A DNA stretch of 63,805 nt, counting the filler, from Sluysia triapertura (Eukaryota), in NCBI GenBank assembly GCA_046118255.1. It is 5 parts of 5 records of this genome, joined end to end, with 100 filler letters (N's around TTAATTAATTAA, not from the genome) between each part and the next. Parts side by side here need not be neighbours in the genome. Positions count along the whole stretch, not along the records: positions 11,852 to 24,741 come from JBJNIA010074275.1; 4 more parts are not named here. One strand, given 5' to 3'. Shown one piece after another: positions 13,145 to 52,500 of the stretch. Position 1 is the first letter of the stretch; the number at the start of each line of letters is the position of its first letter. A program made the position numbers and the translations under genes. The notes under the pieces were generated by a model. That model ran no database searches, had not been told where the DNA came from, and saw only the letters and a list, made by a program, of their open reading frames with translations.

Positions 13145-14697
13145 TTACGTATATCTAAGATCTTCGTGTACCCTTATTGTGGACGACTTGATATTATTAT
13201 TAATTTTATTTCTGATATCGTCATCCATGTATAAGTAATCGTAACATTGGTGCTTATGGCACAAAATTTTTATCATTTTGAAAGTTTTTACATAAAAATA
13301 AGACGAAAACTTTTTATTAATTTTATACACATAAAAAGAAGGCGTTTTATACATTTGTGCAAAAGCCGCTTTTACATATACGTAAAAAACACATGAATCG
13401 AAACATTAATTAGACTAACGAACATGACGCGCTACGTGGCTCTAGCTGGGACTGACTCAATAACCAGTTTCCTCAAGATTCATCTCAACACGTCCGACTC
13501 AACCGTTTTACCATTACATACTCTAGGAATTTTATCCCACTTTAAAAAACGACATCTACGCTGAAATGTATTAGCACAAAAACTATAAAAACTAAAGAGG
13601 TACACTACATAGTCTTAGCTAAATCTTATTTTTATAAGGTCGGTGATTGGAACACAACTTATTAAAATACTCGTTGCATACGGCTTTAAAACTTGCAAGC
13701 CTGCGTCGTTGGTAGAGACCGTACGCATACTCGACAGTTCATTATGTATGACTGGTAGAATAAGTGTAGTCACGGCTACTTAATTCGTCCTGATTGATAC
13801 GGTTGCGAAGTTTAACTTCAGGTAGGCTACAGCATTCACCGAGAGGTATATTATCTAGCACGTACAGCAATACGTACTCTCAAGACTTCTGCCAAATCTT
13901 TGGTTTGAAGACTAACAAGTGAAACTAAACTTGTTAAATATAATAGCTTTTGGACAACTTTATTAAACTCTTTAAACCGCAAAATATATCTATCGGCTTT
14001 CCGATATTTTTCAAGATAAACTGCACATGGGTTTGAATTTATTGATACACCCAATGATGCAGAAACAACAGCATCTCTAGCATGAATAGACAGAAAATTC
14101 TTTTACGTTTTGTAAATATGTATGATCATGTTTAATAGGTATAAAAGGTATAATAAGCATAGTAAAACAATCAACGATCGTAATAAAAAAATCCTTCAAG
14201 TTTTGTGAAACGGCATAATCATTAAGTTCAGAAACTCCAAACGACAGACTGGTCGGGTTCTCCATCATCTCGACACATCCACCGATAGCCGTAACAGCCT
14301 TTTTCACTAGTTTTAAATTAAACTTGTTATATTTCAAAAAAGAAAGTTCGCATTTTGATCCGTACATCTACAATTTGAAAAGTATGTCTACAACATCAAT
14401 AATATTCAAAACTTGGTGAAATAATGCATCCACAGCATAATTCGGACAATTCGAGTTAACTTCAGTCACCCATTTGTTAATTTCAAATTTATGTGGGTCT
14501 TTATTAAATATATCATTACAAACTTTGCAATTAATTATATCTTTATCAACGGGAAGCCAGTGAAATTCTTTCATTTCACGTAAATCTTCCAATAATGAAA
14601 ATTTTGAATTTCTTGTAAATGGGCATTGCTGAGTGAACAATCTAAGCTTGTAAGACAATGATTCATATTGGCTTTCAAAATCACTTGATTCATTCAC
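13145..14697 (-). pseudogene. Fragmented ~500-codon intronless ORF of unknown function (probable mobile-element cargo)
   Basis: Track ORFs 14368..14697 and 14077..14367 are in frame across a single TAG. Coding-like sequence continues through 13851..14054 and 13145..13354 with frameshifts, and GC is higher than in the flanks. Confidence 0.55.
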
Positions 14698-14817
14698 AAC
14701 TCATTAGAAACAAAATTTCAAAAAAAGCATATGAAAATTATTTTTTAGTTTATTCAAAATAGTGCTTAATCTGGAATTTTTTTAAACAAAAGTAGGGACG
14801 AGAATTATAATTTCTTT

Positions 14818-16653: not shown

Positions 16654-17795
16654 TTATACTTTTGGTTGGTAAACATATTTGTTAATTATAGAATAAACAT
16701 TACGGTGGTTATTACGAGCTTTATAATATCTGTATTTGATTAGAAATATATTAACAACATTAATTCTGACGTTATTGCTTCGTCTTAGTACAATATTATG
16801 ATAAACAAAAGCAAAGAATTTAAAAAATGTAAATTTATTAATTATTATTACACATAAAATTTTGATTTCTTTTATTGTATCACTATAAACCTTACTGACC
16901 AGAGTCTTTAATTGAATCTCTAAAATAAAAACAATACTTAAAAAATTGTAAAGATAAACTAATAAAATGATTACATTAATATGCTTCGTCAAGAAATGGA
17001 TCGTTGTTAAACTGGCAGACTTATCATTTTCTTGTTTTCCGCAATGATACATGATTGTGATGTTTGCTGTCTCTTGTAGTTTATAATATTTTAGTGGGAA
17101 TATTAATTCATCAAGTCGATGATAATTTACACTTCTTTCAGTAGCCGAAGTATACGTATGACTAGAATGATTCCAAAACCACATTTTTACTTTAAAAGAT
17201 CCATCTTTGGTGCAAACTACTCCATGTTGTAGAATTTTAAAATACATTCTGTATTTGTGTAAATTAGACTTTATTAATGATGACGTTACAACTTGTTCAA
17301 GAATCAAACAGTGTTTCATAAATTGGCATTTCAGGTTTCTTAAAATTTGTCTGCAAACTGTTTGTTGAGGTACTCTGATGAGACCTAAGTCGTAGTGCTG
17401 ATAATCACTTAGTTTTGGATAGACATCTGCTAATTTCCAACAGTTTCGTACAATCATTGCATTATAAATATGATTACTAAGGCATAGTAGCATTCAAAGT
17501 CTTTTAATTGAAAAAGGCCATCTTTAAACATAACTGGTTTCAGTGGATCAAATAACAGTGTTTTCATGTTACATGCTGTTATCCATAGGAATATTACTCT
17601 AGCTTTTTCAATTTCCTGTAGGTGATATGGATGTATATCATCACAGATTAAATCATAAAATGATAGATATTCCTCTTGACTTATTCGAATAACATGAGAT
17701 TTGACTGTTACTAATACGGATGTATGGTCATAGATTTGAAATGACTTGATGGTTTCGACAGTGAAGCTTTAGAACTATCTGCTGGTTTCAGACAT
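16654..17795 (-). pseudogene. Intronless Hillarin/kyphoscoliosis-peptidase (KY)-like transglutaminase-superfamily pseudogene
   Basis: An upstream frame gives SQEEYLSFYDLI..EIEKARVIFLWITACNMKTLLFD (17577-17609), compared with Hillarin/KY/CYK3 EKARAIFxWIT. The track ORF gives HIYNAMIVRNCWKLADV (17472-17424), compared with the TGase motif HAWNAVxxxGxWxLxDV. ATG at 17795, two early stops and one frameshift. Confidence 0.7.
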
Positions 17796-17904
17796 TTTTT
17801 AATTATAAATCTTTTATTGAAATTATTATATCACTTTTCTCGTCTTCCTTAATTTTTTGGTACTATATTTAAGAAAGTATTAAATTGTGATAATTGAATT
17901 ACCT

Positions 17905-17938
17905 ATTTTATATGGCCGTTGATTGGCGGACCAATCAA
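17905..17938 (-). promoter_or_regulatory. Pol II promoter: inverted CCAAT pair plus TATAAAA
   Basis: Minus strand TTGATTGG-tccg-CCAATCAA-cggcca-TATAAAA, about 110 bp upstream of AAAAAATG at 17795. Confidence 0.55.
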
Positions 17939-18949
17939 AATTTAGTGTAAGAAAATTTTAATATAGAACAAAAACATAAATGAATGAGTAAGAACCATCA
18001 TCAGTATTGACAAATGAATTTACGATGATGAGTATTGTCAATAACGTCATTATTATAAACTTTGTAAATTTTAATAATTATGAAGAGAGACATTTTTATA
18101 ATTAAATAAAATTATAATATTTAATGTTAATAATAACAATAATGTTGCTGCTATTATTAACACTAATTAAATACAATAAGTTTAAAGTACATAAACTCTT
18201 TCCGACTTTTACATGGGCTTTCTTTATTTTTCCTTATGTTTCTTAACATATTTTAGATCTAATTAAAGTGAAAATTGATAAATTTGAATGCAGTAGCAAC
18301 AATAATAAGATGGACAATTTTATAGTTATTGTTATTGCATTACTTAAACTTGAATTGTACCCTATCTTCCTTTGATTCTTCGAGATTTCTTGACATATTG
18401 TAATAATTTTAAAATATGTTTAGAACTAAAGTTTCTGAGTAGAAATTGCTTTGAATGAATTGGTAAGTGTAGTTAGCGTTTCAAGATATGATAGTTGATT
18501 TATGTCGTGAAATGAAATAGAGAATGTTGGAATGAGTTTTTAGATGGTGATTAACGTTCATGGTTGAAAACGACATTTGAGTATTGGAAGATCGTAGATA
18601 AAAGACCTAATGAGAAGATTGTAATTTGGAAAACGTAAAAAGGCAACTACAATACAACTCTTGGTATATTTAAATTATTATTGTGCAGTATTTTATGTGA
18701 TTTGTTTATTTGTTGTTTTTAAAAGGTATTGCATTGTGTTGTTGGTGATTATGCAGATACAAATGGTGAATGTAAGGTGTTGTAACTGATTATTATGAAT
18801 GTCGAATAACATGTTTTTGGTGGATTAGTTGGTGTAAGTTGGCAATGTTGGGTGAAATTGTGATTTGTGTAATTGTGGGTATGAATTTATTTTAGCAGGT
18901 AAATTGTTTTGTGAGTATAAAGGAAATAGATGTGTGGATGTTAAAGTGT

Positions 18950-19560
18950 TAAAAAAATATTAATTTCTAATAAAACTTTAATGGTTATGAAGGTTGACGA
19001 CCACAATATTCATAGTATTAGAGAGCATACGTATTTATTTGGAATTATTTGACGTATTATTTGTACAATTGGCTGAACTCCTTTATGTTGACAATTTGTG
19101 TATTATACACATCCCATTCCAATTACTTCTGTGACCAAAAGTAGAACATTTAAATGGTCGATAATTCTTCAGATTCAAAAAAATTATATCATCTTGATTG
19201 TTTGCGGTTGTCGAATTTAAATGCGCCTGGAGTGTTGCTTTAGTTCCTTCGAGAGTTAATTGCTACTTTTCAGATTCTGTATCTCTTTGAACTCTTCTAA
19301 TTCATTTTTTTCATTATTAGCATTAATTGCATTTTTATTTAAACCTTAAATTTGTTCTTATAAATGTTCAATTTAGGAATTAGAAAGGATATCACTACAG
19401 TCTAGTTCTCTGTGTTTCTTTTCAATTTCTTGGTTGTTTTGCTGTAACCTTTCGATTTCTTCATGTTTTTGTAACTGTTTTTCAGTTCTAGCGAAATTGT
19501 ACTTCAAAACTGACAAATCATCTTTGCCGAATCTAATTTTCGAAAATCAAGACGCAAATA
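18950..19560 (-). mobile_element. Degenerate coiled-coil ORF with zinc-knuckle-like remnants (gag-like)
   Basis: Reads EKQLQKHEEIERLQQNNQEIEKKHRELD..EKNELEEFKEIQNLK, then FKCSTFGHR and NCQHKG, with many stops. Confidence 0.4.
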
Positions 19561-24901: not shown

Positions 24902-27529
24902 TATAAGCCAATGTGAACAGTTGACTCATTAAATCATTGCCATAATTAGCTTAACCTTATAAGGACTATTCCCTAAGAGAACCTTCAGAAATATCTAATT
25001 TAAATTATTGTAAATAAATTTATTCTGATATAAAATAAATTTTATCTAAAATGATATCGAAATCCATACACGCAAACAAGTAGTTGCTTAAGTTAAGGCA
25101 AAAACTATTTGTAGCACGTATATATTTATTGTAAATTTTAAAACAAAATTATACAAAATAATAACATTATAAATACCACATAAGAGATAGAATGTATTAA
25201 TATTATAGAAAAATTAGAAATATATAATATATAAACAAGTAATTAACTCAGTTTTATATTTGTAATTTAGTTTAATTTTAACTTTTGACAATCTTTCTAA
25301 TAATTGGATTTATGATAAGCAGCTACATATATAGAGACTAAAATATTAGATTTTGTGTCAATAACGCAAAAATCAAACGATATATTACACAAGAGTAATT
25401 CGTCGATTTATAATTTACGTTAATTGTTCGAAGACAAATATTATAGAAAAAGATCAACTGAGGCAGATTCATATTATTTTGTTTTTTGATTTGAAACACT
25501 TTGGTTAGTTTAATTTGATTCAAATCTTGCGTGTTTACAGCGAGCCTAACATCCAATTAGATTTCTTTATATAATTTATTGCTTACAATGAAATTTCTCA
25601 TTAAAAAATTTAATGAAAATAAATATTTAATATTTATTTATAAAATCGCCATATTATGTTCCAATTAACATACTTGTATACCATTACATATTTGCACAAT
25701 ATAGTTTTTTGCTTTATAAAAGTACTCTAGAGATTACGTTTGTCATACAATAAACATTCACGTCTTACTATTATTATAAAAGAATTATTATAAAAGAATT
25801 AGAGACACCCTTAAAATTGATTAATCTAATACATACTCTAATCTAATATATACAAAGAATTAAGACCTCCATAACTTATAATAAGTTATAATAACTTATT
25901 TTAAGTTTTAAATCCTATAGGAAAAGTCACCATAAGTCTTTTTACTCTAGCCGAACCCGTTGAGTTAGATTTTAATAAAATACACACACTTAAGAAGATA
26001 ATCTCGCATAAATCTCGCATAAATCTCGCATAATCTCGCATCGGAGTAATATAAGTAAATTTGAACGTAAAGAAAAATTTCCGCAGAGATGTGAAGAATA
26101 TTCCCTACATTATTATCATCACGTAATAATATAATCTCGCAAGAAGATAAGTTTGTATAAGTACATTCACCCTCAGTAGTTAGCAAAGGTTCAATAAATA
26201 CTTTAACTTCTGTTAAAATCCTACAGGTACGTCACTCAAGAGTTTAAACCGTATACTATAGGTGAACCCTTGATTGAAGTTAGACACAAATTTTTCGAAA
26301 ATATGTAATATAAGGGCGTAACGCCCATAAAATCTCAATAAAATAGAAAATAAGTAATTACTTTTTAGAGAAATACGCCCTATCGTAAAACAATATAAAA
26401 TTAAAAGTAGAAAACGAAAGTAGGAACAATAATCAATTTAATTTTTTAAAGTTCGAAACATTTATATTTGATCTTTGTACTCATCATATTTGTTAGAAAT
26501 ATATTTATTCGTAATATTCATATTTGGTATTCATTTATTTGCCTAATGCTCGCCACATTGGGTTAAAGTAAATATTCGATGCTCGTTGTATTTTCATAAT
26601 TATACTTGAATTCTTGCAAAATTGAACAACCAAAAAACTCGTCGTACTTAATTAAATTTGGTTACAAATGTTACTGCAACTATTCGATTTCAAGTGTTAC
26701 GACCATAATTTGGTTCCCAGTACTCGTACAACATACATAATTCATAAGTTTGTTTGTAACATGCTTTACAATCTTTGTTTAAGGCAAGGAAGTAAAATAT
26801 TACTTAAAATCTAATTAATTTTCTGGGAGTTTAGACTACCATTAAATTAAAGTTACTTTAAACATTTAAATTTCGATATTAAGGAAACTTGATATCTAAC
26901 TTTCTATCTTTTTCAAATATTTTTGTGAATATTATGCCATATTATAATAGATATAATAAATCTTATATCTTATTATATTGTAGATCTTATTTTAATTGTT
27001 GAGTTTTTCGTTGCAAAATTACTAAAATTAGAAGTTAAATTGTCCATTAATTAGTGTTCGATTACTTAGAAATAAATTGTTTGATTAAATGGGAGCAAAT
27101 TTATTTATTTATTTATAAATAAATTGTCAAAAGGATTAATACATTTTAGAAAATTGTTGAGGATATAACAGAACCTATTCCAAATTAAAAAGATAAAATA
27201 CCGAAGGTGTAAGCGATTGTTAGGCTTAGGCTCCAATATAAGAATAGTTATTATTCCCATATTTGACTTTAAACTCAAATATCAGTGAAAGTAGCCTGTA
27301 TTGTTCCAATTTTTCAAGCTTTAGTCTTTTAGAAAATATATAAGTACTTGAAACTACCTGCAAAAATCTTACAAGCGTGCCCCATAAAGACGTAAGACAT
27401 TCTCTATAGGTGAACCCTAAGCTTCTTTATCGCATAAACATATTCGACATTGGTTTTAAATTTCGAAACGATAAACAAAAGTCGTGTTGCACGTATGTTT
27501 TTGAACGTATTAAACATAAGTAGCTGAAT

Positions 27530-30020
27530 CCAAATCACTAATAAAAATCCAACCAAGAGACAAATAGATCAATTAGATGATGTTATTTATAGAAATCCAA
27601 GGGGAATAGCAAAAAATAAATGATATAGGAAACTCAGTGATAATTACACACGAAATACCATTAATAATAGGTAAAGTAATTCGGAAGAAGCCATATAGGA
27701 TACCCATATATAACCAGAAAGAAATGCAGGATCAAATAGATACTATGAAAAAGGCTGGGGTAATAAGGCCAAACTTCTCTCCATTTTCATCGCCTGTTTT
27801 ATTAGTTAAAAAGAAAGACGGAACAATGAGATTTTGTATAGACTTTAGAGAATTGAATAAAATAACAAGAAAGGATGTATTCCCGTTACCTCGTATAGAT
27901 GAAATGTTGGATAAATTTGGAAATGCAACATATATTACAACACTCGATCTGCAAAGCGGATATTTGCAAATAGAGATTGCTGAAAAAGACAAACATAAAA
28001 CTGCATTTACCTGTGGTGATGAATTATATGAATGTGAAAAAATGCCATTCGATTAACCGGTGCACCAGCAACTTTTCAAAGATGTATGAATTTTGTATTG
28101 TCTCGGTGTAAAAATGTTATGGTGTATATTGATGATATAATAACATTCTATTAAGACTTTGATACACGTAAAAGATATTGATAATATTTTAAATAGATTG
28201 GAATTAGCTAGACTAAAAATTAAAAAATTGGGCAGAATTTCTAGGACACAGTATCAAAAGAAGGAATAAAACCTAATCTGAGAAACATTGAAAAAGTGGT
28301 TAAATTTACAAAACCAGATAAGGTTAAAAAGATACAAAAGCTTTTTAGGATTAGCCAATTATTATAGAAGATTTGATAAAAAAATTCGCTAAAATAGCAC
28401 AGCCACTTAGAAAATTAACAAAGAAAGATGTCGAATTTAGATGGACGTAAGAACAAACAAACTTTTAAGGAACTAAAAGAACGACTACAACACCAATATT
28501 AATATTCCCAGATGTCAATAAACCATTTATACTTACAACAGATGCTAGTAACTATGTTAGTTACTTATACACGGATCATAAACCATTAACGTATCTATAT
28601 AATCATAGAATTGAAGTTAGTAGATTAAACAGGTGGTTTAACAAATTATCAGAATTCGACCTAGAAGTTATCTATAAACCAGAGTCACAAAACAATGGTG
28701 CTGATTGCATGTCACGATTAACAAATATGGACAATAAAGGACACATAAATTTAATAAAAATAATGACAATATCGAGCAAGATACTAAGGAAATTATCAAA
28801 CATCAAATGGAAGATAAAGAAATTGCATCTATTATTGATTCACTAGCAAAAGGGACACTAATCGAAAGTCAGGCAAAAAGATTGGCCCCTACAGACGGAA
28901 TCCTTAGATTTAGAGATTCAAAGGAAGACAGGAATGCCTTAGTTCCCAGATCATTAATAACACCAATTTTAATACTATTTCACGATGGTCAATTAGGTGG
29001 ACATTTGTCTCTAAGGAAAACATTATCACGTATAAAAGACAAATATTATTGGGAGAATATGGAAGACATTAGAAAATGGTGTGAAGACTGTTCAATCTGT
29101 TGTAGAAGGAAAATACTGGAATTCGGACAAAAGTACCACTTAAACCAATACCGGTACCACTGTCACCTATGGAGTTTACTGCAATGGATATAATGGGGCC
29201 ACTACTGGAAACTATCAATGGAAATAAATATATTATCGTATTTGCTGATTACTTAACTAAATGGCCTGAGGCACACCCAATGCCGAATCAAAAAGCTGAA
29301 ACCGTCGCACAAATATTTGTTGAAAAAATAATTTATAGATACAGTACACCACGAAAATTACTTACGGATCAGGGCACAAATTTTACCAGCGACGTAATCA
29401 AATCAGTGACAAAAATATTCTATATTTTGAGAATTTACATATCACCTTATCATCCGCAGACGGATGGGCTAGTTGAACGATTTAATATGATTTGATAAAT
29501 ATGCTTCAATTATACGTAAATGATAGGCAAACAGACTGGGATTTATATATTGCACTGTGCTTATTCGCATACAGAAGTTCGGTGCATCCAGCAACAAATT
29601 TCACTCCATTTTATTTAATGTACGAACGCCATTCGAATATGCCAGTGGATTTAGAATGGATACCACCTACATCTCAATATATGGAAACGCCTGAATACAT
29701 AACAATAATGCATGAAAGACTGCAAGATGCTTGGAAGCGTGCTGGTTTACAAATAAAGTTTTCACAAGAGGCATGTAAGGATGCATATGACAAGAAAGCT
29801 AAAGAGCACAATTTTCAGATTGGTGATAAGGTACTCATCAATATCCACTAACCAAACCAAAACAATCACCGAAGTTACATAAACCATTTAAAGGACCGTG
29901 CTGATGTAGTGAAAATTATCGACACCAATTTATTTGTTAAAGATACAACCAAACTAGATTCTGAAACTTTTGTAGTACATGCCAACAGATGTAAGAGAGC
30001 ACCAAGTGATGAATACTAAT
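27530..30020 (+). mobile_element. pol: Ty3/gypsy LTR retrotransposon pol remnant (RT-RNase H-integrase)
   Basis: RT motifs PYRIP, SPFSSPVLLVKKKDG, RFCIDFRELN and YIDD (~28125). RNase H TDAS..YTDHKPL has the intervening segment deleted. Integrase has HHCC (HDGQLGGH..CEDCSIC), MDIMGP, TDQGTNF, YHPQTDGLVERFN and a GPY/F-like KPFKGP..VHANRCK. Frameshifts and stops throughout. Confidence 0.97.
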
Positions 30021-30134
30021 TAAGAAATAGAACTGTTAAGAAATCTAAATTAAAAGTCAAGCCAAAGACAAAAGACCGCGATAAACCACCTTCGATTCAA
30101 TCATTGGTCGATAAGCAAATAGTAATGATGTATC

Positions 30135-30620
30135 ATGTATCAACTGGAATATGCACACATTATCCAAAATGTACGATTCAACGGTAGATGGATTCAATCG
30201 GTTATAGACACAGGAGCAACCACATCGATGATACATTATAATTTTCTGACCACATGGGTTATAGTATTTATGGATCCACCGCAAACAATAATTTATAATC
30301 TGCAGCGGACACCGATAAATATAGATGGAATAATACTTGCACATTTGGATATACTAGACAAACGAGTAAACGAATATATCTATGTTTGGAAGGAATCCCC
30401 TTTTGACTTAATAATTGGATTAGATAAACTAGATAAATTAGATGATACAGTTATACATAGTATGGTCTTATAGAATTTCCACAAGGCACGCAATTAATAC
30501 TTCCAAAGGTTGTTATTCCATCTCCTAATAGTAATATTGCTCCGATTCATATCCCATCGCCGGATATCCAACCGAGTATTCCAGTTTTTCTACCAAGTCG
30601 ATTATCTGATTTGTTATGGT
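30135..30620 (+). pseudogene. Retropepsin-like aspartic protease downstream of integrase
   Basis: VRFNGRWIQSVIDTGATTSMI (DTGA at 30207-30218) and PFDLIIGLDKLDKL. After a frameshift it continues YGLIEFPQGTQLILP and a Pro/Ser-rich linker. Confidence 0.85.
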
Positions 30621-30639
30621 AAGAGTCATCCACAGACTC

Positions 30640-32650
30640 ATCAATGTCAGCAGTAACAGTGAACTTTCGGAATCATCATCATCAAGAATTGGTTCTGCTG
30701 ACACAGTAATGCTTACATTTACTAAAGTAAATAATCGTAAGAAATCATGGTAGATGATATTGCTAATAATAAAGGTTGTATTCCTATCTCTAATTAATTT
30801 TGTCAAATCTATAGATATTGAGGAGGATGAAGAATATAGGAATTTATATGCAGCGATTAATAACGGAAAAGAGCAAAAAATATCAATTACAAATATTTAT
30901 ATTGAATACTGGGAGATAAAATTTAGCTCAAAGAAAATGTTCTTAAGGCATAGACTTGATATATATTGTATTTATCTAGACCCATTATTAATCGGTAAAC
31001 CACATCATGTAGATAAAATCCCGCGTTGTCTACAATGTGCATTGGATACAAAGCGAAACACAAGAAAGGTGCAAAACATTAGAATGAATAAATATGTGAA
31101 TAATTGTATATCTACAATTAAAAATAGTAAGTAATCCAACAAACGATATATGGCCTAACGTTGTTGCATTAATATATAAATTCCTATTTCAGTAATATAC
31201 GCAATTTGGATAATATTACATGTAATCGACTTTAGTATAAAAATAGGTGTAGTTGCAATTAACAAAAAATCAATACCTTTAATGCTAGTCTTAGTAATTA
31301 CCATGGTTCAATGTAATACATATGATGTACAAATTTACAAAACCGAATACCTTGGATTTCGTAATTATGATACTGAAGTAAGAGTTAAAGTACTACAGAA
31401 TGACATTCAAGTAAGATTTAACCAGCCAGACTTAACTTTAGTTTTTGGAACGTGAAGGAATATTATATTAATAATTTGGTAAATCCTATTGCTATGTGTA
31501 CTGACTTCTTGGCTAACTACGGGCGACATATATTGCTACGATATATGTAGCACCAGCGAAATTAGAACTACATTTTGCACTAAAAAGTACCCGAAAATAT
31601 CTATCATTATCAGAAATGTTAAAAATGATCCAGCATTGCTAATATTAATTTTAGCTGCACTATTATTCATCATTGCTTTATCAATAGTTATACTAGTAAT
31701 TATCATGTTTGTGTCGAACAAATGCAGATATCCATGCTTGCTTCCAAATAACGACGATGATCGATATCCTATCCCACGCAGAAATAATATTGAGCCACCA
31801 CCAGGATTTCCGATAACACCACCTCCTGCTTACGAATATGCAACAGTTAATTATTCACCATTAATGTACGGAGATTGGCAAATGACAAGTTTACAGTCAG
31901 TTATGATAGCATGTATATGTATAGCATGTATAATTAACGTACATACAAAACCATTTAAATCTCTCCAACTATATATGTAAAAGTACAAAGCAACATTGCT
32001 AAAATTACTAACATTTCTATGAGTTGTTGCTTGATTAATTGGTGTAGACATAGACTGGATTTTAGTAAACATACAAAATATCAGTTAATGATGTGCAATG
32101 GACTTGTGGAAAATCAATTATTTAATATTACTTTGGAATTAGAAATTGAATTGGAACCCAATCAAAATTCGAAAATTATATCAATACACAATTATAGAAT
32201 TAGAACAAAACTTTATGTTTTTTTCATTTATCAATAACTATAAAATTTCAAATGTTACTATTTAGGGAAAGTAATAATTTTGTAAAAGTAAGAAACCCGT
32301 TAACGGAAAATGATATATTAATTGGTTACGAAGTAAACAAAAAGAACCCACCCAAAAAGGATTTTGATGAGTTATTTGATAAAGAACAGGACTATGCACT
32401 AATACTTCGTAAAACTGATATTTATCTATTTTTTGCACTTGAACAAAATCTTACTTTTATCGAGGTTTAGAAATTCACAATACACTCGGATTTTGGCCAG
32501 AATAGAGTATGCGACTTACGTGTACCAATTTTAGATAAAGTGGATATTAGTGCTACTCCAAAACTCGTCATCACTACTACTGCTATGTTAAACAAAGTAA
32601 AAGTTCACATATCTTACCTTGACTATAAGTTATTTGGACAATTTAAATAA
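30640..32650 (+). pseudogene. Degenerate multi-pass membrane (env-like) polyprotein of the gypsy element
   Basis: Signal-like stretches at 30754, ~31280 and ~31900; TM segments at ~31155-31215 and 31630-31710; PPPAY at 31819-31833; Cys-containing ectodomains with NIS/NIT/NLT sequons; final TAA at 32648-32650. Confidence 0.7.
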
Positions 32651-36342: not shown

Positions 36343-36749
36343 AATTTATGGTAATCTAAATAATAGTCATCATGGCTGATAAGAATTGGTTTTTCAATTT
36401 TAAAAATTTTATTAAATAAAAGGTAGACAATAAAATAAATATTTCATAAAGATTAAAATAATAAGAGGAGTCAAGTCGTTCTAAAAGATTATAAACGTGG
36501 CAAAAATAACAAATCAACAATTAGTCGAAGTTTTTATTTAAGTAACGTAATATTAAAAGAAAATATGTCAATGATTTAAATGATGAGAACTTGAATTTCA
36601 AGCAAGAATTTGTTGGCATTCTAGAGTTAGTATACAAAACCAATTTAAAGGGTAAGAAAATTTAAAATATATTTAAGAAAAAGTTATATAAAATAGCTGA
36701 AATGTGATAATAAAATATAATACTCTAGAGCAAGAATAATGAACAGTAA

Positions 36750-37410
36750 AATATTTATAATCATTTTGAAACCGAAGAATACCTTGGAGTTCCAAAGACC
36801 TTTGGAGGGTATTGGGACTTTTGTGATGACTTAAGTAAGGTTTTGAAGTGTAAAAACAGTTTTGAACTTCTGAACCTTGTTGATCTTTTGGAATATTTGA
36901 AGACGTTTGAGAACTTAATGAATTTATATAGACCTTAATAGACCTATGAGTAACATTTTAAAATGTTTGGAACTTTTAAAAATGTTCAAAAATTAAAATC
37001 ATGGTTAATAATATTAAAGATAAATTTAACACGTTAATAATTGAAATAAAAAAATAGAAAAAGAAATCAGAGTGGTGAAGTGAAAACACCTAGAGCCTCC
37101 TGAGTACTTTATAAAGTATTTAACAACTTTATAACCATAATAAAACCTTTCAACTTAGAATAAAATAAGTTAAAATAAATAATTAATTAAAATATTAATT
37201 ATCTTAATTACGTTAAGTTACGTTTGTCTAAATAACTTTTGAATGAGGAATGCTATGCTCAAACTGTAATTGCGTAATTAGGGAATGTGTTTTAAAGAGA
37301 CCTTCCAATGAAGATAAGGTTTGACCGAGCCTTAATATTGAGCAAAGTCGAATTTTAATTAATTTTTAATTAAAAATGATGAAATTTTATATTTAGAATG
37401 TTGAAGAGAT
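36750..37410 (+). repeat. Diverged direct repeat copy 1 (LTR-like)
   Basis: Co-linear with 38922-39583: AAGAATACCTTG, TTCCAAAGACCT, AATCAGAG.GGTGAAG, AATAACTTTTGAATG.GGAAT, GGTTTGACCGAG, AATATTGAGCAAAGTC. Confidence 0.85.
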
Positions 37411-37921
37411 GACAAATTAGGTACGGAGTCATTTCTATAAAATAGGATGAGCCGAAAATGATGTTGAAATGTTGTGAAATTGTTTGTTTTGGAAAGAGAA
37501 CTGTAAAAACTGTAGATATTAAATTTCATGTAATTGTGTTTCATGTAATTGTTAAAACTTAATAATTAAAAAGTACAGAAAATTAAAATTAGAGATTATT
37601 TTATTAATTAGATAAAAGTTTTAATTAAATAGTACAGAAAAATAATAATTAATAAAACGTTTACATTTAAAGATTATTTTAATTAGAACATCTACATTTA
37701 AAGATTATTTTATTTGATTATTAACTTTATCTTTATAAAAACAAAAAATTAATATTACTTGTAAAAATCTAATTCAATTATCTTTCAATACGTAGTAAAT
37801 TTTTGATACAGATTTTAATATAAATAGTTTGCGATTTTACAAGATTCTCACAAGTAAAAAGCACAATAATAATTTTAAATATTTTAAAAGTATTGGACTC
37901 AGTCCCTAGAGACAAAAGTTA

Positions 37922-38030
37922 TTAGTTGGAAGCATTATTTGGAGAAAATTTATATGGGAGTCGATATTCGCTATACTAATTGGAAACATTATTTGGAGAA
38001 AATTTATTTGGGAATCGATAGTCGCTAAAT
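37922..38030 (+). repeat. ~53-bp tandem duplication
   Basis: TTGGAA(G/A)CATTATTTGGAGAAAATTTAT(A/T)TGGGA(G/A)TCGATA(T/G)TCGCTA occurs twice. Confidence 0.85.
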
Positions 38031-38921
38031 TGGATATTTTTCGGAAAAGCAATCGTAAGCTATTTATATTAGGTTTTTATACAGTAATATTCTGTATTTA
38101 AATAGACTTAAAATCATCTTCATATTTAACATACCCAAGTATTCACCTGGGTAAAAATCATTTTGAACTTGCATTTTAATCTGAATTAGGAGAAATCCTA
38201 AGACTAATAAGTTAAACTTTATTAATATTATTGTGAATATTTCTGTTATTATTGTGAATATTTTGCTTATACTAATCTTCTTCTATAATTATAACCATAA
38301 TTGTAAATTTGTATTTAATAAAAATTCATAGGATACAAGCACTTTGGTTTGTTTTCGGAATTATTTAAATTGACAAAAAGTAGAAAATTGAGGTGGAACT
38401 TTAAAATTAGTTAAAGACATTAAAATCGGTATTTACTTTAGGAAGTACAATTAAAGTGATATAGATAAAGACCCTCCATTATTAGATAATAAGGAATATT
38501 TCATAGTTTTGACATATAGTATTCCTATAACTAAGTCTTCCTCGAGATATAAAACTTAGATTATGGGCGGACCCGTTTTAACATATTTTTATGATTGTCA
38601 GATAAGTTTTTAGATAAAATCTGAACATAACTAAAATTAAATTCATAATTTTTAAGAATGTCAATAATAATAATAATAATTTTTATTTTAATGTAAGAAG
38701 TGATTCATGAAAAAATAGAACGAGTAAAGTAGAAAAAATGAGAGTTGAATGTTAATCGAATTGTTTTGTTTTGTTTGACAGGTCTTACTGCTGGAATTGT
38801 CAAACTGTGGATTAGGAGATGAGTAAGAGGCATATAGAATCACATAATCAAGGAAGAACGGATAGAAAATGATGGATTGAACATTATAAACATTGTTGAA
38901 ATAAGAATCATGAAAAAGCAA

Positions 38922-39583
38922 ACATTTATAATGATGTTAACAGCTAAAGAATACCTTGACATTCCAAAGACCTATATAAGGTGTTGAGACCTTGCGGAAG
39001 CTTGAAAAGGACTGAGAAAACCTTTGAAGGCATTAGAGTACCTTTGAACTTGTTAATTTTGAGATCATTTAAGATTCTACTAACCCTTAAGTATTCTGGA
39101 AACCTTGATAAGTATCTAAGATCTTCGAGTAATATTATAAAGTGTATAAAATATTTAAAATGATTGAGAAATAAAATCTTTGTTCAAAATAATAAATATA
39201 AGTATAACACGGCAATAATTAACATGAAGAAGTAGAAAAATGAATCAGAGAGGTGAAGGTGAAAACATCTAAAACTACTAAAAAACGTTAGAACCTCATT
39301 AAAACCTTTAAACATAAAATAAGATTAAGTCTAAAAATAGATTAATAATTAAAAATCTTAATTAACTTAATTAAGAAAAAGTACGTTTTTGTGAATAACT
39401 TTTGAATGTGGAATACTATGTTAAATTTGAAAGTGTGCATGTATTTGTTTTGAAATGACCTCTCGATGATGGTATGGTTTGACCGAGTTCATGCAAGGAA
39501 AGCCTGAATATTGAGCAAAGTCAAATCTTAATTAATTTTTAATTATGAAATGTTAAATTTTTAATACTTAGAGTGATGTAAAT
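38922..39583 (+). repeat. Diverged direct repeat copy 2, truncated by the spacer
   Basis: Same co-linear words as 36750-37410, offset by about 2.17 kb. Confidence 0.85.
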
Positions 39584-47557: not shown

Positions 47558-48268
47558 GAAAAAAATTTTTAACTATTAATTATGTGTTCTTAGTGTAGTG
47601 TTCAACTCATACATAAATTTCCAACACAGACAATCATAAATATTCACCACTTATCACACCAACATATAACAATCTAGTAAAATAAAATATTATGTAATAA
47701 ATTTACAATAATTTGTATTTTCAATCCGCCAATATCGCTCTACACAATATATCACCTTAATGTAATTTTTACATTTTCCTTTTTTAAAAAAAATGACTAT
47801 TAAATTCACTAGCACCAGAAAATAAGGAATAATATTTTTATCTCAAGAATAGCCATTTTTTATAACTAAATCTAAAGTCAAATAAAGCTGTAAATCTTAC
47901 GATTATGATTATGATTATTATGTTTATGTATTGTTATTAAATTCTAATTTTATTACTTTCATGTATTATTATTAAATTGTAATTTTATTATTACCTTATG
48001 TATCATCATTAAAATTTAATTTGTATTATTACCATTATCATTAATTTTATTATTATTTTTATGTTATTTATTACGATTATTATTTTCAGTATTATTATTT
48101 TTATTATCCTTTTCGTTTCAAGTCTCGCCATTTACTTTTTACCATTTTGTTTTAATATTTGGCCAAAGACTAAAATTTTAAAAATTTTTAAAATATCTAC
48201 GGTTACACACGAAGTAAAATTTTAAATTTATTTTTAAAATACTTTTTTGCCAATAGAAAAACTACAAA

Positions 48269-49633
48269 ATGATGAGTTTACGAGATTTTTCTGTAAATAG
48301 CATATATACTGATCGCCCGATACTTGATGGTAAGATAATTGGAATTTTCTTATGAATTCATTCAGGTGTTAGTTTTATAGACTTGAAGGCGTCAAAAGTA
48401 CCCGAGTCCGAAATTATGCAAGATAATTTTAATATTCTGTTAGCTCAAGGAAACCTTATCCAACTCCAAATGCAACAAACAAATGCAATATTTGGTTCCG
48501 GTTCAACTTCAGTAAACGATGTCTCTCAGTTTTCAGATAACCAATCTAAACTTGCACAAACTTCTACATCTAATTCATTATTCGGACAAAACCCTGGAAG
48601 TGGAAATGATTTTAATTTTGCAAGGACATCTGGATCTTTAGTGATGAATAATAATTCCAATCCAACAGTATTCGGTCAGGTTACCGGTGCATTTAATACT
48701 AGTAATGTTTTTATGACAATGATCAAACCTAGTAATACTTTTATGAAAGTAATTAGTACTCTTATTACTTCTATGATAACAAATAATACTAGTGATACTT
48801 TTACGTTAACTAATAATACTAGTAATGCTTTTATGATAACAAATAATACTAGTAATACTTCTATGATAACAAATAATGCTAGTAATGCTTTGATGATAAC
48901 AAATAATACTAGTAATACTTCTATGATAACAAGTAATACTAGTAATACTTCTATGATAACAAATAATACTAGTAATACTCTTATGATAACAAAGAATACT
49001 AGTAATGCTTCTATGATAACAAATAATACTAGTAATACTTCTATGATAACAAATAATACTAGTAATACTTTTATGATAACAAATAATACTAGTAATGCTT
49101 CTATGATAACAAATAATACTAGTAATGCTCTTATGATAACAAATAATACTAGTAATACTTTTACGATAACGAATAATACTAGTAATACTTCTATGATAAC
49201 AAATAATACTAGTAATGCTTCTATGATAACAAATAATACTAGTAATGCTTTTATGATAACAAATAATACTAGTAATGCTTTTATGATAACTATTAATATA
49301 AGTAATGTTTTTATGATAACTATTAATATAAATAATATTTTTATGATAACGATTAATAAGAGTAGTGTTTTTATAATCACGATCAATACGACTAATGTTT
49401 CTAAGATGACGATTAATATGTGTAATGTTTTTATTATATCTCTTAATATCTGTTATGGAATAAAAATTAAATATATCAACGCAATTTCTTATGTTTTAAT
49501 TCAATTATTTACCAACGAAAATTTAAAATATTTGAATAATTTTATAGACCTTAAGTCATGTTTTGCTTTAATTAAATTTGTCAAGTTGAACTTTAAATAT
49601 CTTAATATTACGCCCCGGCCATTACACCACTAA
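48269..49633 (+). CDS. Spliced ORF with FG motifs and a 10-aa Asn/Thr/Ser-rich repeat array (FG-nucleoporin-like N-terminus, tentative)
   Basis: ATG at 48269. A 36-nt GTAAGA..TTCAG intron (48330-48365) removes an in-frame TGA and joins to track ORF 48383..49633. Motifs AIFGS, SLFGQ, VFGQ. Confidence 0.5.
48691..49440 (+). repeat. 30-bp tandem array, about 25 units
   Basis: Unit AAATAATACTAGTAAT(A/G)CTT(C/T)TATGATAAC. Near-perfect at 48781-49290 and degenerate at both edges. Confidence 0.97.
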
Positions 49634-52500
49634 CATTCAGGTCCTCATCGATATCCAGAAAGTCAATCAGCAATTCTGGAAGGTTCAATGGTATCTACTA
49701 TTACCATAATAAATACCAACAAAAGGCAAAATGTTGTGTACTAGAATGCAGATACTCCAACAAATTGAACACGCTTAAAATAAAAGATATTTGTATATAC
49801 CATGCACATTTTAAATCTCTAGCAAAGCGATGCATGGATGGCTGCAACCAATTTAACATGTTCAATGCAACGGCAAAAAACGAAATTCGCCACTGGTCGT
49901 AGCGGTCCAACCCCACAATATGGCGATCAACAATATATTTTCAGTACTGCTCAGATTCATCAATTTCCAGCATGTCTCCCTCGAATTTCTCATTGACACT
50001 GAAGCCGCCATTTCGGTGATACCATAAAAAATAATAAACAACAGCGCCAAAACATGTTCTTATTTAACAGCAGCCAACGGAACGGCCATTGCTTGCTACG
50101 GCTCATAGAAACTCAAATTTAAAATCCACCCGTTCAAAGAAATACTTTTCTAATAGCTGCAGTTCAGCAACCAATATTAGAAGCAGACTTTCTAAGTCAT
50201 TACAATTTCTCCGTTGACTGCCACACAAGGACTTTGAACAAAATCTCCGGACAGTTGTCGCACATAAGTATAGAAAAAAATCAAATTTACGAAACAAATA
50301 TCCTTTCTTATCCAAACTTATTTCAACAACAATTTAATCCGAACTATACACCTTGCTCGGAACATTTCATCAATACATTAACACTCCACCATGTAGACAG
50401 CGACGAAAGGAATTAGCGCAAAAGGTCCGTTCCCAAGCAGAGCGATCTTCTTCACCATGGGCCGCATCTCTGCAAATCGTCACAAAAAAGATGGCACTAT
50501 TCGCATATGCAGTGACTACAAAATGTTAAACAAAGTCACTATTCCCGACGCGTATCCGATGCCTCTTATAACAAATATTCTACACCGATTTACGGGATTC
50601 AGCGTCTTTTCCTCAATGGGTCTCGAAAAGGCCTATCGCCAAATACCGGTACATACTGCTGATATATCAGAATGCCTTTCGGTCTACGGAATTCCGCTCA
50701 AACTTTTCAACGGCACGTCGATCAAATACTATAAGGATTACCATTTGTCACTGCATACATCGACGACATATTGATCCCTTCTAAGGATGTCCATCAACAC
50801 CAAACCCATTTAGATACAGTGTTAAATAAACTAGCAGACAATAATTTGGTAATCAAACCCACGAAATATCGATTCTTCCAATCCAGAATTACATTCCTGG
50901 GACACAATATATCTGATTACGGCATCGAACCATTGGAAACCCATACAGCAACAATGAGAGATTTCCCGCAACCTCAAATGCGGTGTTTCTTAGGATTCGT
51001 AAATTATTGCCGCAGATTCATACCGAGGCTGTCCCAAATAATAGTTCTTTCCTCGGGAAAGAAATCCCAGTCATTTACATGGAACCAAACATCCTTAACA
51101 TCCTTTTTACCGTACAAAAGAAGCGATAATGGAAATGAAAAGTTTAGCTTTTCCACTTCCACAAGTACCTTTTATTCTAACTACGGACGCTTCCAATATA
51201 GCGATCAGCGCGGTAGTTGTGCAAATACAAGAAGACATCCTTAAACATATCGAATTCTTTTCTCACAAATTATCAGCGTAACAAACAAGGTACTTCACAT
51301 TCCTATCTTCCTTTGAATATTTGTTGATACCAGCTCAATCCACACTTCGATCCGACCACAAACCGTTGTTGCACATATTCAACATAAGTTATTTTTCCCA
51401 GTTCACTTTTAACATTGAATACATTACGGTACAAGAAAATGTGGTCGTGGATGCCTTATCCCGTATAGGTATAAACAGTATTGAATTTTTACCAAAGTTC
51501 ACCATTGAAGACCTACAAAGGAACCCTCCAACAAATCAAGAAATCCCTCAGTTCAGCGTAACACCAATATTGCGCAAGGGAGTTTATTTTCATAATCAAT
51601 TATCAGGCATTGCACGCCCAGTTATTTTCCACCAATTACTTATTCCAGCTTTCCAATACGTTCACAACACGACTCATTGCGCAGCTAAGGCAACATATGA
51701 AGTCTTATGCTCCAAAGTCGTATGGCTATCAATGCTGAGAGATATCAAATATTGGTGCAAACATACAAAACCGGGACTGCTTCATTTTCTTACAGGCCAT
51801 CTGTTCGAAACAATTCACATGACATTGTCGGTCCATTACCACAATCGCGTGACTATACTTATATTAACAATAATCGACCGACACAGCCACTGGCCTGAAG
51901 CCTTCAAGATCAGGAACATAACTACCGAAAACATATCGAGAATCCTGGTTTCCAATTGGATATCTCGCTTCGGAGTTTCTAAACGAATTATTACAGAGCA
52001 GGGAGTTCAATTCGAATGTGGCTTATTCAACGAACTAATAAAACAATTAGGCAGTACCGGATTACGAACGACATCATACCATCCTCAGTCTAACGGCATG
52101 ATTGAGCGCTTCCACCGCACTCTAAAGAACTCTTTCCGCGCGTTATCGGTACAACATAATTGGGCTGATGGCCTTCCCTTAATTTTATTAGGTTGGCGAA
52201 ATATACCACTCACTATACTGGATATTCACCAGCCCAGGTAGTTCTAGATACAAACACATGATTACCCCCAACGACTATTCGAATCAGAAAATTCTAATGA
52301 GAAAATCTATTCTCCTTTATTACGGAAGTATTTCAATGAGCTAGATAAATCACCCGGACATAATGAGAACTCATATATACACATGCCAAAAGACACGCTG
52401 GATACACAATTTGTCTGTGTAGCACTGGAAAACCCTACATCTCTACAAAAAAAGATATTCTGGACCATATAAAGCCATACAAACAAATCCTGAAAACTGT
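49620..52500 (+). mobile_element. gag-pol: Ty3/gypsy retrotransposon remnant, CsRn1/Kabuki-like (gag end, PR, RT, RH, INT)
   Basis: CHCC finger CIYHAHFKSLAKRCMDGC (49792-49845); PR FLIDTEAAISVIP..LTAANGTAIACYG; RT KKDGTIRICSDYKMLN and YIDD (~50756); RH TDAS and SDHKPL; INT WPEA and YHPQSNGMIERFHRTLK; GPY at ~52463. Confidence 0.95.

What the first reader, a model, noticed from the sequence alone, without database searches (positions are those of the whole stretch)
16654..17940. Intronless transglutaminase-like (Hillarin/KY) gene with a private CCAAT/TATA promoter inside mobile-like DNA
Seen: EKARVIFLWIT and HIYNAMIVRNCWKLADV motifs with His and Asp at triad positions, a nearby ECYYA candidate Cys, a beta-rich C-terminal part (GVVCTKDGSFKVKM), no introns, and an inverted CCAAT pair plus TATAAAA upstream. 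The segment between the Cys region and the His motif is shorter than in the family and appears deleted at the frameshift. Established: these motifs define KY/Hillarin/CYK3 transglutaminase-like proteins. Inference: a host gene captured as cargo by a large element. I do not recall a TGase-like cargo in LTR retroelements.
Basis: partly seen in the sequence, partly recalled or inferred. Interest (0 to 1): 0.72.

Follow-up and report, generated by a model that had tools for sequence, protein, structure and literature searches.

The report
Retrotransposon ends stuffed with host mRNA
The flagged gene is a broken, spliced piece of a host transglutaminase-like gene lying inside a 2.3-kb mobile repeat that is most likely a lone end-repeat (LTR) of a Gypsy retrotransposon; about 15,000 such ends exist in this genome, many followed by a different gene-like frame, and the frame appears to be kept open, likely because it reads on towards the element's gag gene, while the borrowed protein itself drifts freely.

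Summary
The sequence is real, but it is not a working gene with its own promoter. Window 16661-19005 (-) is one decayed copy of a 2.3-2.8 kb repeat with sharp ends and a 5-bp target duplication. Its transglutaminase-like (TGL) frame comes from a host Hillarin/KY-type gene: homology starts and stops at a host exon's splice sites, so the cargo was spliced mRNA. The 'ECYYA' Cys is out of catalytic register. The 13-bp 5' terminus occurs 15,421 times (control 20) and follows the polypurine tract of a CHCC-Gag Gypsy element in 28 of 30 loci. Related units end at a tRNA primer site, and one locus shows tract, 3.4-kb unit and primer site together. So the unit is most likely a solo LTR. Sister LTRs carry other cargo (RRN3, an RRM, a helicase-like frame). 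In changes shared among copies, stops are purged (0 of 129; 1 of 276) but amino acids drift neutrally, unlike gag and integrase. The frame runs out of the LTR in the primer-site frame, so I infer read-through towards gag. No TGL-bearing LTR was seen joined to an internal region. The scan noted similar gene-carrying leaders before, on other DNA of this genome, without identifying the mover.

The parts
16661..19005 (-). Whole unit, 2345 bp: most likely a solo LTR of a Gypsy retrotransposon carrying captured host mRNA
   Evidence: Sharp shared ends across copies; terminus follows the polypurine tract of the Gypsy element
18993..19005 (-). 5' (U3-side) terminus, one mismatch to the family 13-mer TGTRGTGGYCAAC
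   Evidence: 15,421 hits, control 20
16661..16669 (-). 3' terminus ...CCAACCAAA, an imperfect inverted repeat of the 5' end; ends in AA rather than CA in most copies
   Evidence: 12 of 54 ends have this exact 9-mer; 2 of 54 end in CA
19006..19010 (.). Target-site duplication, 5' copy (matches 16656-16660 at 4 of 5)
16656..16660 (.). Target-site duplication, 3' copy
17870..19005 (-). About 1.1-kb non-coding C/A-rich arm, inferred U3/promoter; its first 800 bp are 73% identical to the arm of the RRN3-carrying family
   Evidence: function inferred, no start site mapped
17906..17935 (-). Inverted CCAAT pair (17922-17935) and TATA-like box (17906-17912), shared within the family
17454..17768 (-). 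Cargo piece 1: N-terminal part of the TGL unit, ending at the frameshifting loss of about 106 nt near 17475
16654..17493 (-). Cargo piece 2: 279 open codons with the His and Asp motifs, the host-exon-derived stretch and the 3' arm; the frame runs out through the 3' terminus
17043..17364 (-). Stretch derived from one host exon (L122, AG..GT borders), 72% identical, joined to upstream coding sequence without the intron
47594..49633 (+). Second family member in the window: variant terminus at 47594 and a 425-codon frame with FG-like motifs and 30-bp repeats
49606..52238 (+). Decayed gag end (CHCC knuckle), protease-like stretch, RT and integrase of the Gypsy lineage whose 3' end is followed by the family terminus
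11914..11926 (-). Third family terminus, running into an assembly gap

Best explanation
The unit is most likely a solo LTR of a CHCC-Gag (CsRn1-like) Gypsy retrotransposon, and it contains a spliced 5' fragment of the host's double-TGL (Hillarin/KY-type) mRNA, which likely entered by template switching during reverse transcription. Shown: sharp ends, 5-bp target duplication, spliced host origin, the same terminus after the Gypsy polypurine tract, sister units ending at a tRNA primer site, purge of stops without amino-acid constraint, and a frame that leaves the LTR in the primer-site frame. Inferred: the 1.1-kb arm is U3 with the promoter. Translation starts inside R/U5 and reads through the primer site into the long gag leader. 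Any captured piece is then tolerated if it keeps that frame open, and it is copied into both LTRs at each cycle. LTR-LTR recombination leaves thousands of solo copies that decay, the window copy among them.
For: Ends and target duplication: of 20 copies with both ends, 8 match 5 of 5 as scored, 9 after correcting one mis-called start, and 3 match 4 of 5. Terminus: 15,421 hits against 20. It follows the integrase end and tract GGAGGGGG in 28 of 30 loci by strict pattern; of the other two, one has no flank and one a variant terminus. Tract plus terminus has 16 exact hits against 0. L432 shows tract, terminus, 3.37 kb with two frames of 173 and 226 codons, then TGGTGTCA, and its arm resembles TGL-family arms (68-71% over 164-215 nt). 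RRN3-type units L159 and L168, and L368 (67% over 999 nt to a TGL-family arm), also end at TGGTGTCA. End motif plus TGGTGTC has 13 hits against 3. A tRNA-like T-arm and 3' end complementary to this site has 54 hits against 0. CHCC knuckle in 22 of 30 gag loci. Spliced cargo: matches to host exon L122 start and end at its AG/GT borders, best copy 91%. Selection: stops 24 against 170 expected (41 TGL copies) and 30 against 180 (31 RRN3 copies). Among changes shared by 4 or more copies, stops are 0 of 129 (8.2 expected) and 1 of 276 (15.4 expected), while non-synonymous/synonymous ratios equal those of singletons (4.16 vs 4.21; 2.57 vs 3.28, P 0.19). The same test on integrase and gag shows purifying selection (0.53 vs 3.89; 0.34 vs 2.7). 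At solo 3' ends the longest open frame is the one in phase with the primer-site TGG in 24 of 28 copies (median 57 codons against 6 and 6.5). At seven LTR-end/primer-site junctions that frame is open for 13-110 codons upstream, and in L406 and L433 for 86 and 77 codons downstream.
Against: No TGL-bearing unit was seen joined to a polypurine tract or primer site: 0 of 62 5' ends and 0 of 54 3' ends shared a terminus-adjacent flank or began TGG, and the first pattern tests were negative. The link for the TGL family rests on the shared terminus and arm homology. No whole element with two LTRs was seen (contigs are short). 8 of 20 copies lack a matching target duplication. Most 3' ends are AA, not CA. 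The 400 bases behind the 11 TGGTGTCA sites held showed no DNA similarity to one another, and only L406 and L433 are tied to gag, so many carriers may have had non-coding internal regions, where read-through into gag cannot be the selective reason. Five frameshifts are shared by 3 or more TGL copies and two by RRN3 copies, and one stop is shared by 6 TGL copies. A continuous frame from LTR to the Gag core was not seen in any single copy. The upstream host exons were not found, so intron loss is shown at one junction only. 15 of 16 exact tract junctions are TGTAG-type, whereas many TGL copies are TGTGG-type.
Confidence: 0.68

Rival explanations
1. Same solo-LTR anatomy and RNA capture, but the frame is kept open because transcripts that look like normal mRNAs escape nonsense-mediated decay or translation-coupled piRNA production, not because the frame feeds gag.
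For: Stops purged without amino-acid constraint. Sequences behind most primer sites are unlike each other and not shown to be gag. In planarian stem cells poorly translated transcripts are processed into piRNAs (PMC10954484, abstract and outline seen). Named cargoes include housekeeping genes (RRN3; an RRM).
Against: Does not by itself explain why the frame is in phase with the primer-site TGG in 24 of 28 solo ends and stays open across it. No expression or small-RNA data were available. The host is not shown to be a planarian.
Confidence: 0.2
2. The TGL unit is a self-contained non-autonomous DNA element (Pack-TIR or Ginger-like) that borrows an integrase-type enzyme; its ends only resemble those of the Gypsy LTRs.
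For: No TGL copy seen joined to an internal region. TGTNR termini also mark Ginger elements, and TDD-4/5 make 5-bp duplications (PMC2836005, passages).
Against: No 40-270 bp terminal inverted repeats. The terminus follows a polypurine tract in 28 of 30 Gypsy loci. A sister family with a 73% identical arm ends at a primer site. The cargo is spliced, whereas GingerRoot cargo keeps introns (PMC6839031, passages). A DNA cycle gives no simple reason to purge stops.
Confidence: 0.07
3. One reading: a functional transglutaminase-like cargo gene with its own promoter that benefits the element or host.
For: His kept in 37 of 56 and Asp in 34 of 54 copy stretches; open frames of up to 397 codons in some copies; median dN/dS to the host exon 0.73.
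Against: Cys out of register and absent from the source clade. Shared changes are as non-synonymous as private ones. Only about a fifth of the host protein is present. The window copy is frameshifted twice.
Confidence: 0.03

Closest known systems
CsRn1-clade Gypsy retrotransposons (CsRn1, PwRn1, AgCR; PMC2582038, passages seen)
   Same: Gag with the CX2HX9CX3C knuckle (22 of 30 loci, often twice), gag-protease-RT-RH-integrase order, polypurine tract before a TG-start LTR.
   Different: PwRn1 has 381-bp LTRs, a 4-bp target duplication and a tRNA-Trp primer site. Here the LTRs are 1.6-3.4 kb with coding cargo, the duplication is 5 bp, the primer site is TGGTGTCA (tRNA-Leu type, identity recalled), and most 3' ends are AA. 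No RT tree was built.
LTR-mediated retrocopies in animals (Tan et al. 2016, PMC5131818; abstract and section 5 read)
   Same: Partial, spliced host mRNA captured by template switching; often sense and in frame; re-amplified after a single capture; several genes can be combined.
   Different: There the mRNA replaces part of the internal ORFs between two LTRs, in a handful of copies. Here it lies inside the LTR unit itself, is amplified to hundreds of solo copies per cargo, and shows selection for an open frame only.
Host-mRNA-capturing endogenous retroviruses (crocodilian KIT-ligand and nectin3 lineages; PMC4299795, passages)
   Same: Captured host mRNA replicated with a retroelement.
   Different: There the cargo is internal, and the nectin3 frames are intact and under purifying selection. 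Here cargo is in the LTR and amino acids are unconstrained.
Pack-TIR, Pack-MULE and GingerRoot gene-carrying DNA transposons (PMC8277862 abstract; PMC6839031 passages)
   Same: Many elements with shared ends and different host-gene fragments.
   Different: These have long terminal inverted repeats and DNA-level capture (introns kept in GingerRoot). Here the capture is spliced and the ends are LTR ends.
Hillarin/KY/CYK3 transglutaminase-like proteins, spiralian two-unit form (P0003, P0007; catalytically inactive subclass discussed in PMC3718969, passages)
   Same: Source of the cargo: first TGL unit and start of the Ig-like KY domain.
   Different: Fragment only, no catalytic Cys, broken, no protein-level constraint.
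Burro giant Gypsy elements of planarians and plant Ogre (PMC6431247, passages)
   Same: Gypsy elements with extra host-like domains (Burro) or multi-kilobase LTRs (Ogre).
   Different: In the passages seen, the extra domains lie in internal ORFs. A different host-derived frame inside each LTR subfamily is not described there.

Membership tests
Solo LTR of a Gypsy retrotransposon | 4-6 bp target-site duplication around the unit | tested here: met
   9 of 20 copies 5 of 5, 3 of 20 4 of 5, 8 of 20 no match
Solo LTR of a Gypsy retrotransposon | 5' terminus preceded by a polypurine tract at the end of pol in full elements | tested here: met
   28 of 30 loci; 16 against 0 exact hits. Shown for the shared terminus, not for a TGL-bearing copy
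Solo LTR of a Gypsy retrotransposon | 3' terminus followed by a tRNA primer-binding site | tested here: met
   L159, L168 (RRN3 type), L368, L432, L444; complementary tRNA-like 3' end 54 against 0. Not seen for a TGL-bearing copy
Solo LTR of a Gypsy retrotransposon | TG...CA termini | tested here: inconclusive
   TG start in most of 62 ends; CA end in 2 of 54, AA in the rest (the end-calling pattern allowed only these two)
Solo LTR of a Gypsy retrotransposon | Two near-identical copies flanking one internal region | not testable with these tools
   Contigs too short; L432 shows one unit between a tract and a primer site
CsRn1 clade | CHCC (CX2HX9CX3C) Gag knuckle | tested here: met
   22 of 30 loci; definition from PMC2582038
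CsRn1 clade | tRNA-Trp primer-binding site | tested here: inconclusive
   Site is TGGTGTCA(G); the matching tRNA was found by its 3' end only; that it is Leu rather than Trp is recalled
CsRn1 clade | 4-bp target duplication and short LTRs as in PwRn1 | tested here: not met
   5 bp; 1.6-3.4 kb
CsRn1 clade | RT phylogeny within the clade | not tested
   No reference set fetched
Active transglutaminase/papain-like enzyme | Cys-His-Asp triad with Cys three residues before the helix Tyr/Phe | tested here: not met
   Lys at that place in 40 of 48 copy stretches, Glu in the window copy; Cys one place off in 17 of 48
Hillarin/KY-type TGL proteins (as source) | TGL core followed by Ig-like KY domain | tested here: met
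   47% to P0003; host exon matches PF23265 at E 6e-16; copies themselves below Pfam cut-offs
Ginger/Pack-TIR DNA transposons | Terminal inverted repeats of 40 bp or more | tested here: not met
   No self-match in the window copy and none joining the two ends of the L126 copy; only a 9-14 bp imperfect repeat
LINE-made processed pseudogene | Poly(A) tail, variable 5' truncation, variable-length duplication | tested here: not met
   Both ends fixed, three terminal A, fixed 5-bp duplication

The most novel reading that the evidence does not exclude
One Gypsy lineage has turned its LTR into a translated cargo bay. Any host mRNA piece that lands in frame becomes the start of the element's first reading frame and is copied into both LTRs. 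Recombination then scatters promoter-plus-open-frame cassettes by the thousand, so the genome holds a very large stock of chimeric frames selected for being translatable, not for what they encode: a retrotransposon-built nursery for new genes, and possibly a shield against translation-coupled piRNA surveillance.
Probability: 0.45. Interest if true: 0.88.

Novelty: new variant of a known kind. Interest (0 to 1): 0.76.

Why it matters
Retroelement capture of host mRNA is known, but as rare internal cargo. Here the capture site appears to be the LTR itself, at the scale of about 15,000 termini in a 619-Mb assembly; 8 of 14 termini picked by pattern alone are followed by a sense frame of 150 codons or more, against 0 of 14 antisense. 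Two cargo families give a clean natural case of selection on frame openness apart from protein sequence, with gag and integrase of the same lineage as controls. That makes two open questions testable: how non-functional open frames persist long enough to seed new genes, and whether translation protects retroelement RNA from surveillance. In practice, these frames will be mis-annotated as large orphan gene families. The result also offers a candidate mover and far end for several earlier unexplained notes on this genome.

Tried and rejected
Pfam on the window pieces and on 8 repeat members: no TGL hit. PDB sequence search: nothing meaningful for single copies; the profile of alignment A2, which includes three host-type rows, hits FAP246 at E 6e-6. 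Protein search with a copy and with host RRN3: none at E <= 0.001. Flank sharing among 62 5' and 54 3' ends and purine-preceded termini (30 of 64 hits examined): no shared internal region; these tests were underpowered against thousands of solo copies. The first primer-site pattern (98 hits, control 61; 30 examined) picked up an unrelated repeat and missed true junctions, because it allowed no spacer base. 3-bp and 4-bp duplications were considered and dropped for 5 bp. Upstream host exons were sought three times and not found; C246762 (L191) proved to be another chimeric copy. Sequencing runs: no RNA holder listed. The one run behaves as DNA, since a contig covers host intron and exon with no differences; many 85-95% relatives pile on the exon and several stop at its borders. 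The other Gypsy-like element in the window (27500-32500) was considered as the partner, but copies of the unit interrupt it at different places and orientations. Literature: ten searches listed no paper whose title or abstract start describes host mRNA captured inside LTRs in frame with gag. Only open-licence papers are searched, no supplements were read, and Repbase-type entries are not held, so absence from print is not established. bioRxiv 10.64898/2026.02.11.705288 (abstract) and PMC12440569 (abstract) did not fit; PMC8532177 (passages) gave context only. No structure or complex prediction was run.
Full report
1. The observation. Neither piece has a Pfam hit. A search of the genome with the region gave 82 matches from 40 scored of 118 candidates, and a protein search with a less broken copy gave 152 matches from 150 scored of 250 candidates, among them the one locus that passes the Transglut_core cut-off (L040). 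L040's best named relatives are two-unit TGL proteins of a trematode and of annelids, so the host is probably a flatworm or other spiralian (inference). The first TGL unit of P0003 matches the best copy at 47% identity (E 2e-80) and the window copy at E 4e-8 and 1.5e-6. The window copy lacks about 106 nt near 17475, out of frame and private to it, and 36 nt near 17415, in frame and shared with L002; it has a further frame break near 17740.

2. Not an enzyme, not a private promoter. Of 157 aligned stretches of relatives, 59 have Cys three residues before the helix Tyr/Phe and none two before; the closest relatives have no Cys there. Copies have Lys at -3 in 40 of 48 and Cys at -2 in 17 of 48, so the ECYYA Cys is out of register and probably arose later. 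His is kept in 37 of 56 and Asp in 34 of 54. A catalytically inactive TGL subclass is discussed together with Hillarin and Ltd-1 in PMC3718969 (passages). The inverted CCAAT pair is in 6 of 8 aligned stretches and in 11 of 68 termini at +700 to +1500, against 0 of 68 at 0-700 and 0 of 42 upstream flanks. It is a feature of the repeat's arm; promoter function is inferred.

3. The cargo is spliced host mRNA. L122 holds a host exon with AG and GT borders that matches Ig-like_KY at E 6e-16. Copies match it from its first base to its last and no further: 91% for the best copy, 72% for the window. Upstream they continue in TGL coding sequence without the intron; downstream they continue in element sequence, not in the intron. 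The upstream host exons were not found, so intron loss is shown at one junction. The cargo covers about 310 of about 1500 residues.

4. The unit. Copies share sharp ends at window 19005 and 16661. Of 20 copies with both ends, 8 have a perfect 5-bp target duplication as scored, 9 after correcting one mis-called start, 3 (the window among them) match 4 of 5, and 8 do not match. Lengths are 1.6-2.9 kb. The 13-mer TGTRGTGGYCAAC has 15,421 exact hits against 20 for the reversed control, many of the listed ones pointing into contig ends, as young collapsed repeats do. The same ends and a 73% identical arm carry a second cargo, an 840-bp internal piece of host RRN3 (PF05327, 46.8 bits, cut-off 25; 865 candidates), fused in frame to an element AUG and to downstream sequence; its borders are not splice sites. 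Other members carry an RRM (E 3e-9), a helicase-like frame (Atlas lead only, score 0.94), a weak Unkempt-type finger (below cut-off) and unnamed frames of 290-445 codons. Of 14 termini picked by pattern alone with 2.5 kb behind them, 8 have a sense frame of 150 codons or more and none an antisense one. The window itself has two more termini, at 11926 and 47594.

5. The mover. My first tests for an internal region were negative. Scanning integrase loci then gave L346: integrase, a polypurine tract, then the terminus. Of 30 loci of that integrase end, 28 show the junction by strict pattern; one has no flank and one has a variant terminus. Tract plus terminus has 16 exact hits, control 0, 15 of them TGTAG-type. 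The LTR sequences diverge right after the 13-mer although the internal regions among the 30 loci are 82-90% identical to L346. The gag of this lineage has the CX2HX9CX3C knuckle in 22 of 30 loci, the mark of the CsRn1 clade (PMC2582038, passages); a decayed copy lies at window 49606-52238. At the other end, TGGTGTCA follows the terminal AAA plus one base in the RRN3-type units L159 and L168, in L368, and in L406 and L433, which lead into the gag leader. L432 shows tract, terminus, 3.37 kb with two long frames, and primer site in one natural stretch, and its arm resembles TGL-family arms. End motif plus TGGTGTC has 13 hits against 3; L444's site reads 18 bases complementary to a tRNA-like 3' end that has 54 hits against 0 (that it is tRNA-Leu is recalled). 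No TGL-bearing unit was itself seen at such a junction; in L059 and in the window at 47594-49633 a unit abuts a piece of gag with no primer site, which reads as insertion into the element.

6. What is selected. Against the natural host exons as yardsticks, 41 TGL copies have 24 stops where 170 are expected if all divergence were neutral, and 31 RRN3 copies 30 where 180 are expected. Among changes shared by 4 or more copies but by under 80% (to set aside host-lineage changes), stops are 0 of 129 (8.2 expected, P 2e-4) and 1 of 276 (15.4 expected, P 2e-6). Non-synonymous to synonymous ratios of shared changes equal those of singletons (4.16 vs 4.21; 2.57 vs 3.28, P 0.19) (copies covering under 60% of the yardstick were left out). 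The same test gives 0.53 vs 3.89 on integrase (32 copies) and 0.34 vs 2.7 on gag (16 copies), so it detects protein constraint where there is some. Against this: five frameshifts are shared by 3 or more TGL copies (three of them within 10 bases of each other, possibly compensating or misaligned), two by RRN3 copies, and one stop by 6 TGL copies. At solo 3' ends the longest open frame is the one that would put the primer-site TGG in frame in 24 of 28 copies (median 57 codons against 6 and 6.5). At seven LTR-end/primer-site junctions that frame is open 13-110 codons upstream against at most 23 in the others, and 86 and 77 codons downstream in L406 and L433.

7. Mechanism. Shown: LTR-type ends, spliced capture, amplification after a single capture per family, selection for an open frame. 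Inferred: U3 is the 1.1-kb arm; translation begins in R/U5 and reads through the primer site towards gag, so parent elements could not afford a stop in the cargo but were indifferent to its residues; capture is by template switching as in PMC5131818 (abstract and section 5 read); solos arise by LTR-LTR recombination, and unmatched duplications by recombination between loci. That gag frames can begin inside an LTR (yeast Ty1) and that some LTRs carry ORFs (MMTV sag) is recalled, from no call. The main rival keeps the anatomy but explains the open frame by escape from nonsense-mediated decay or translation-coupled piRNA production (PMC10954484, abstract). It gains from the fact that the sequences behind the 11 primer-site-like motifs held are not alike. 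The two can coexist.

8. Known and new. Internal capture of host mRNA by LTR elements and ERVs is known (PMC5131818; PMC4299795, passages), as are gene-carrying DNA transposons (PMC8277862 abstract; PMC6839031 and PMC2836005 passages) and giant planarian Gypsy elements with extra domains (PMC6431247 passages). Capture into the LTR, many different cargoes on one lineage, and selection for frame alone did not appear in my ten searches (titles and abstract starts seen; open-licence papers only; no supplements read). Earlier notes of this scan describe similar leaders with varied cargo, and one describes stop-free drifting frames, on other pieces of this genome. They are unchecked AI notes; a sequence look-up did not tie them to this window. 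Verdict: the transglutaminase itself is a dead passenger; the system that carries it is a new variant of LTR-mediated gene capture, interest 0.76.

Noticed in passing
window 27527-32467 (+), with a second remnant at 9385-10125 (-): A different Gypsy-like element: RT, RNase H and integrase, then an aspartic protease placed after the integrase (30129-30470) and membrane-protein-like frames. Copies of the LTR unit often interrupt this family (L033, L056, L060, L164, L176).
   Followed up: partly
window 47594-49633 (+): Family member whose 425-codon frame has FG-like motifs and about 25 copies of a 30-bp repeat; it abuts the gag remnant directly, at a gag site where L420 also has an insertion, in the opposite orientation.
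   Followed up: partly
L191 (G000:C246762) 1-700: A TGL exon end is joined, at the host exon border, to a different downstream frame with a CCCH-type finger (read by eye), so exon ends may be preferred switch or splice points.
   Followed up: partly
L243, L254, L259, L269 and about ten more loci: An unrelated abundant repeat about 2 kb long with a conserved internal motif that mimics an LTR end plus TGG; not classified.
   Followed up: partly
L350, L351, L353, L354, L355, L358, L360: Contigs with long unbroken gag/pol/env-like frames that look vertebrate-retrovirus-like and unlike the other integrases here; possibly foreign DNA (host or food) in the assembly.
   Followed up: no
L429 gag leader; L404, L410, L416, L419: The Gag of the partner lineage has a very long N-terminal leader, with a stretch ending in LLGG just before the DUF7041 domain, reminiscent of a ubiquitin-like end (recalled resemblance, untested).
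   Followed up: no
L159 2726-3419: An RRN3-type LTR and its primer site are followed within about 100 bp by part of a second arm of the same family, suggesting a tandem or very short internal region.
   Followed up: partly
window 36700-39580: Two or three copies of another dispersed repeat, found in the flanks of many loci; not classified.
   Followed up: no
window 13854-14700 (-) and 55333-56134 (-): Decayed frames without Pfam hits; the second looks like a gag remnant.
   Followed up: no
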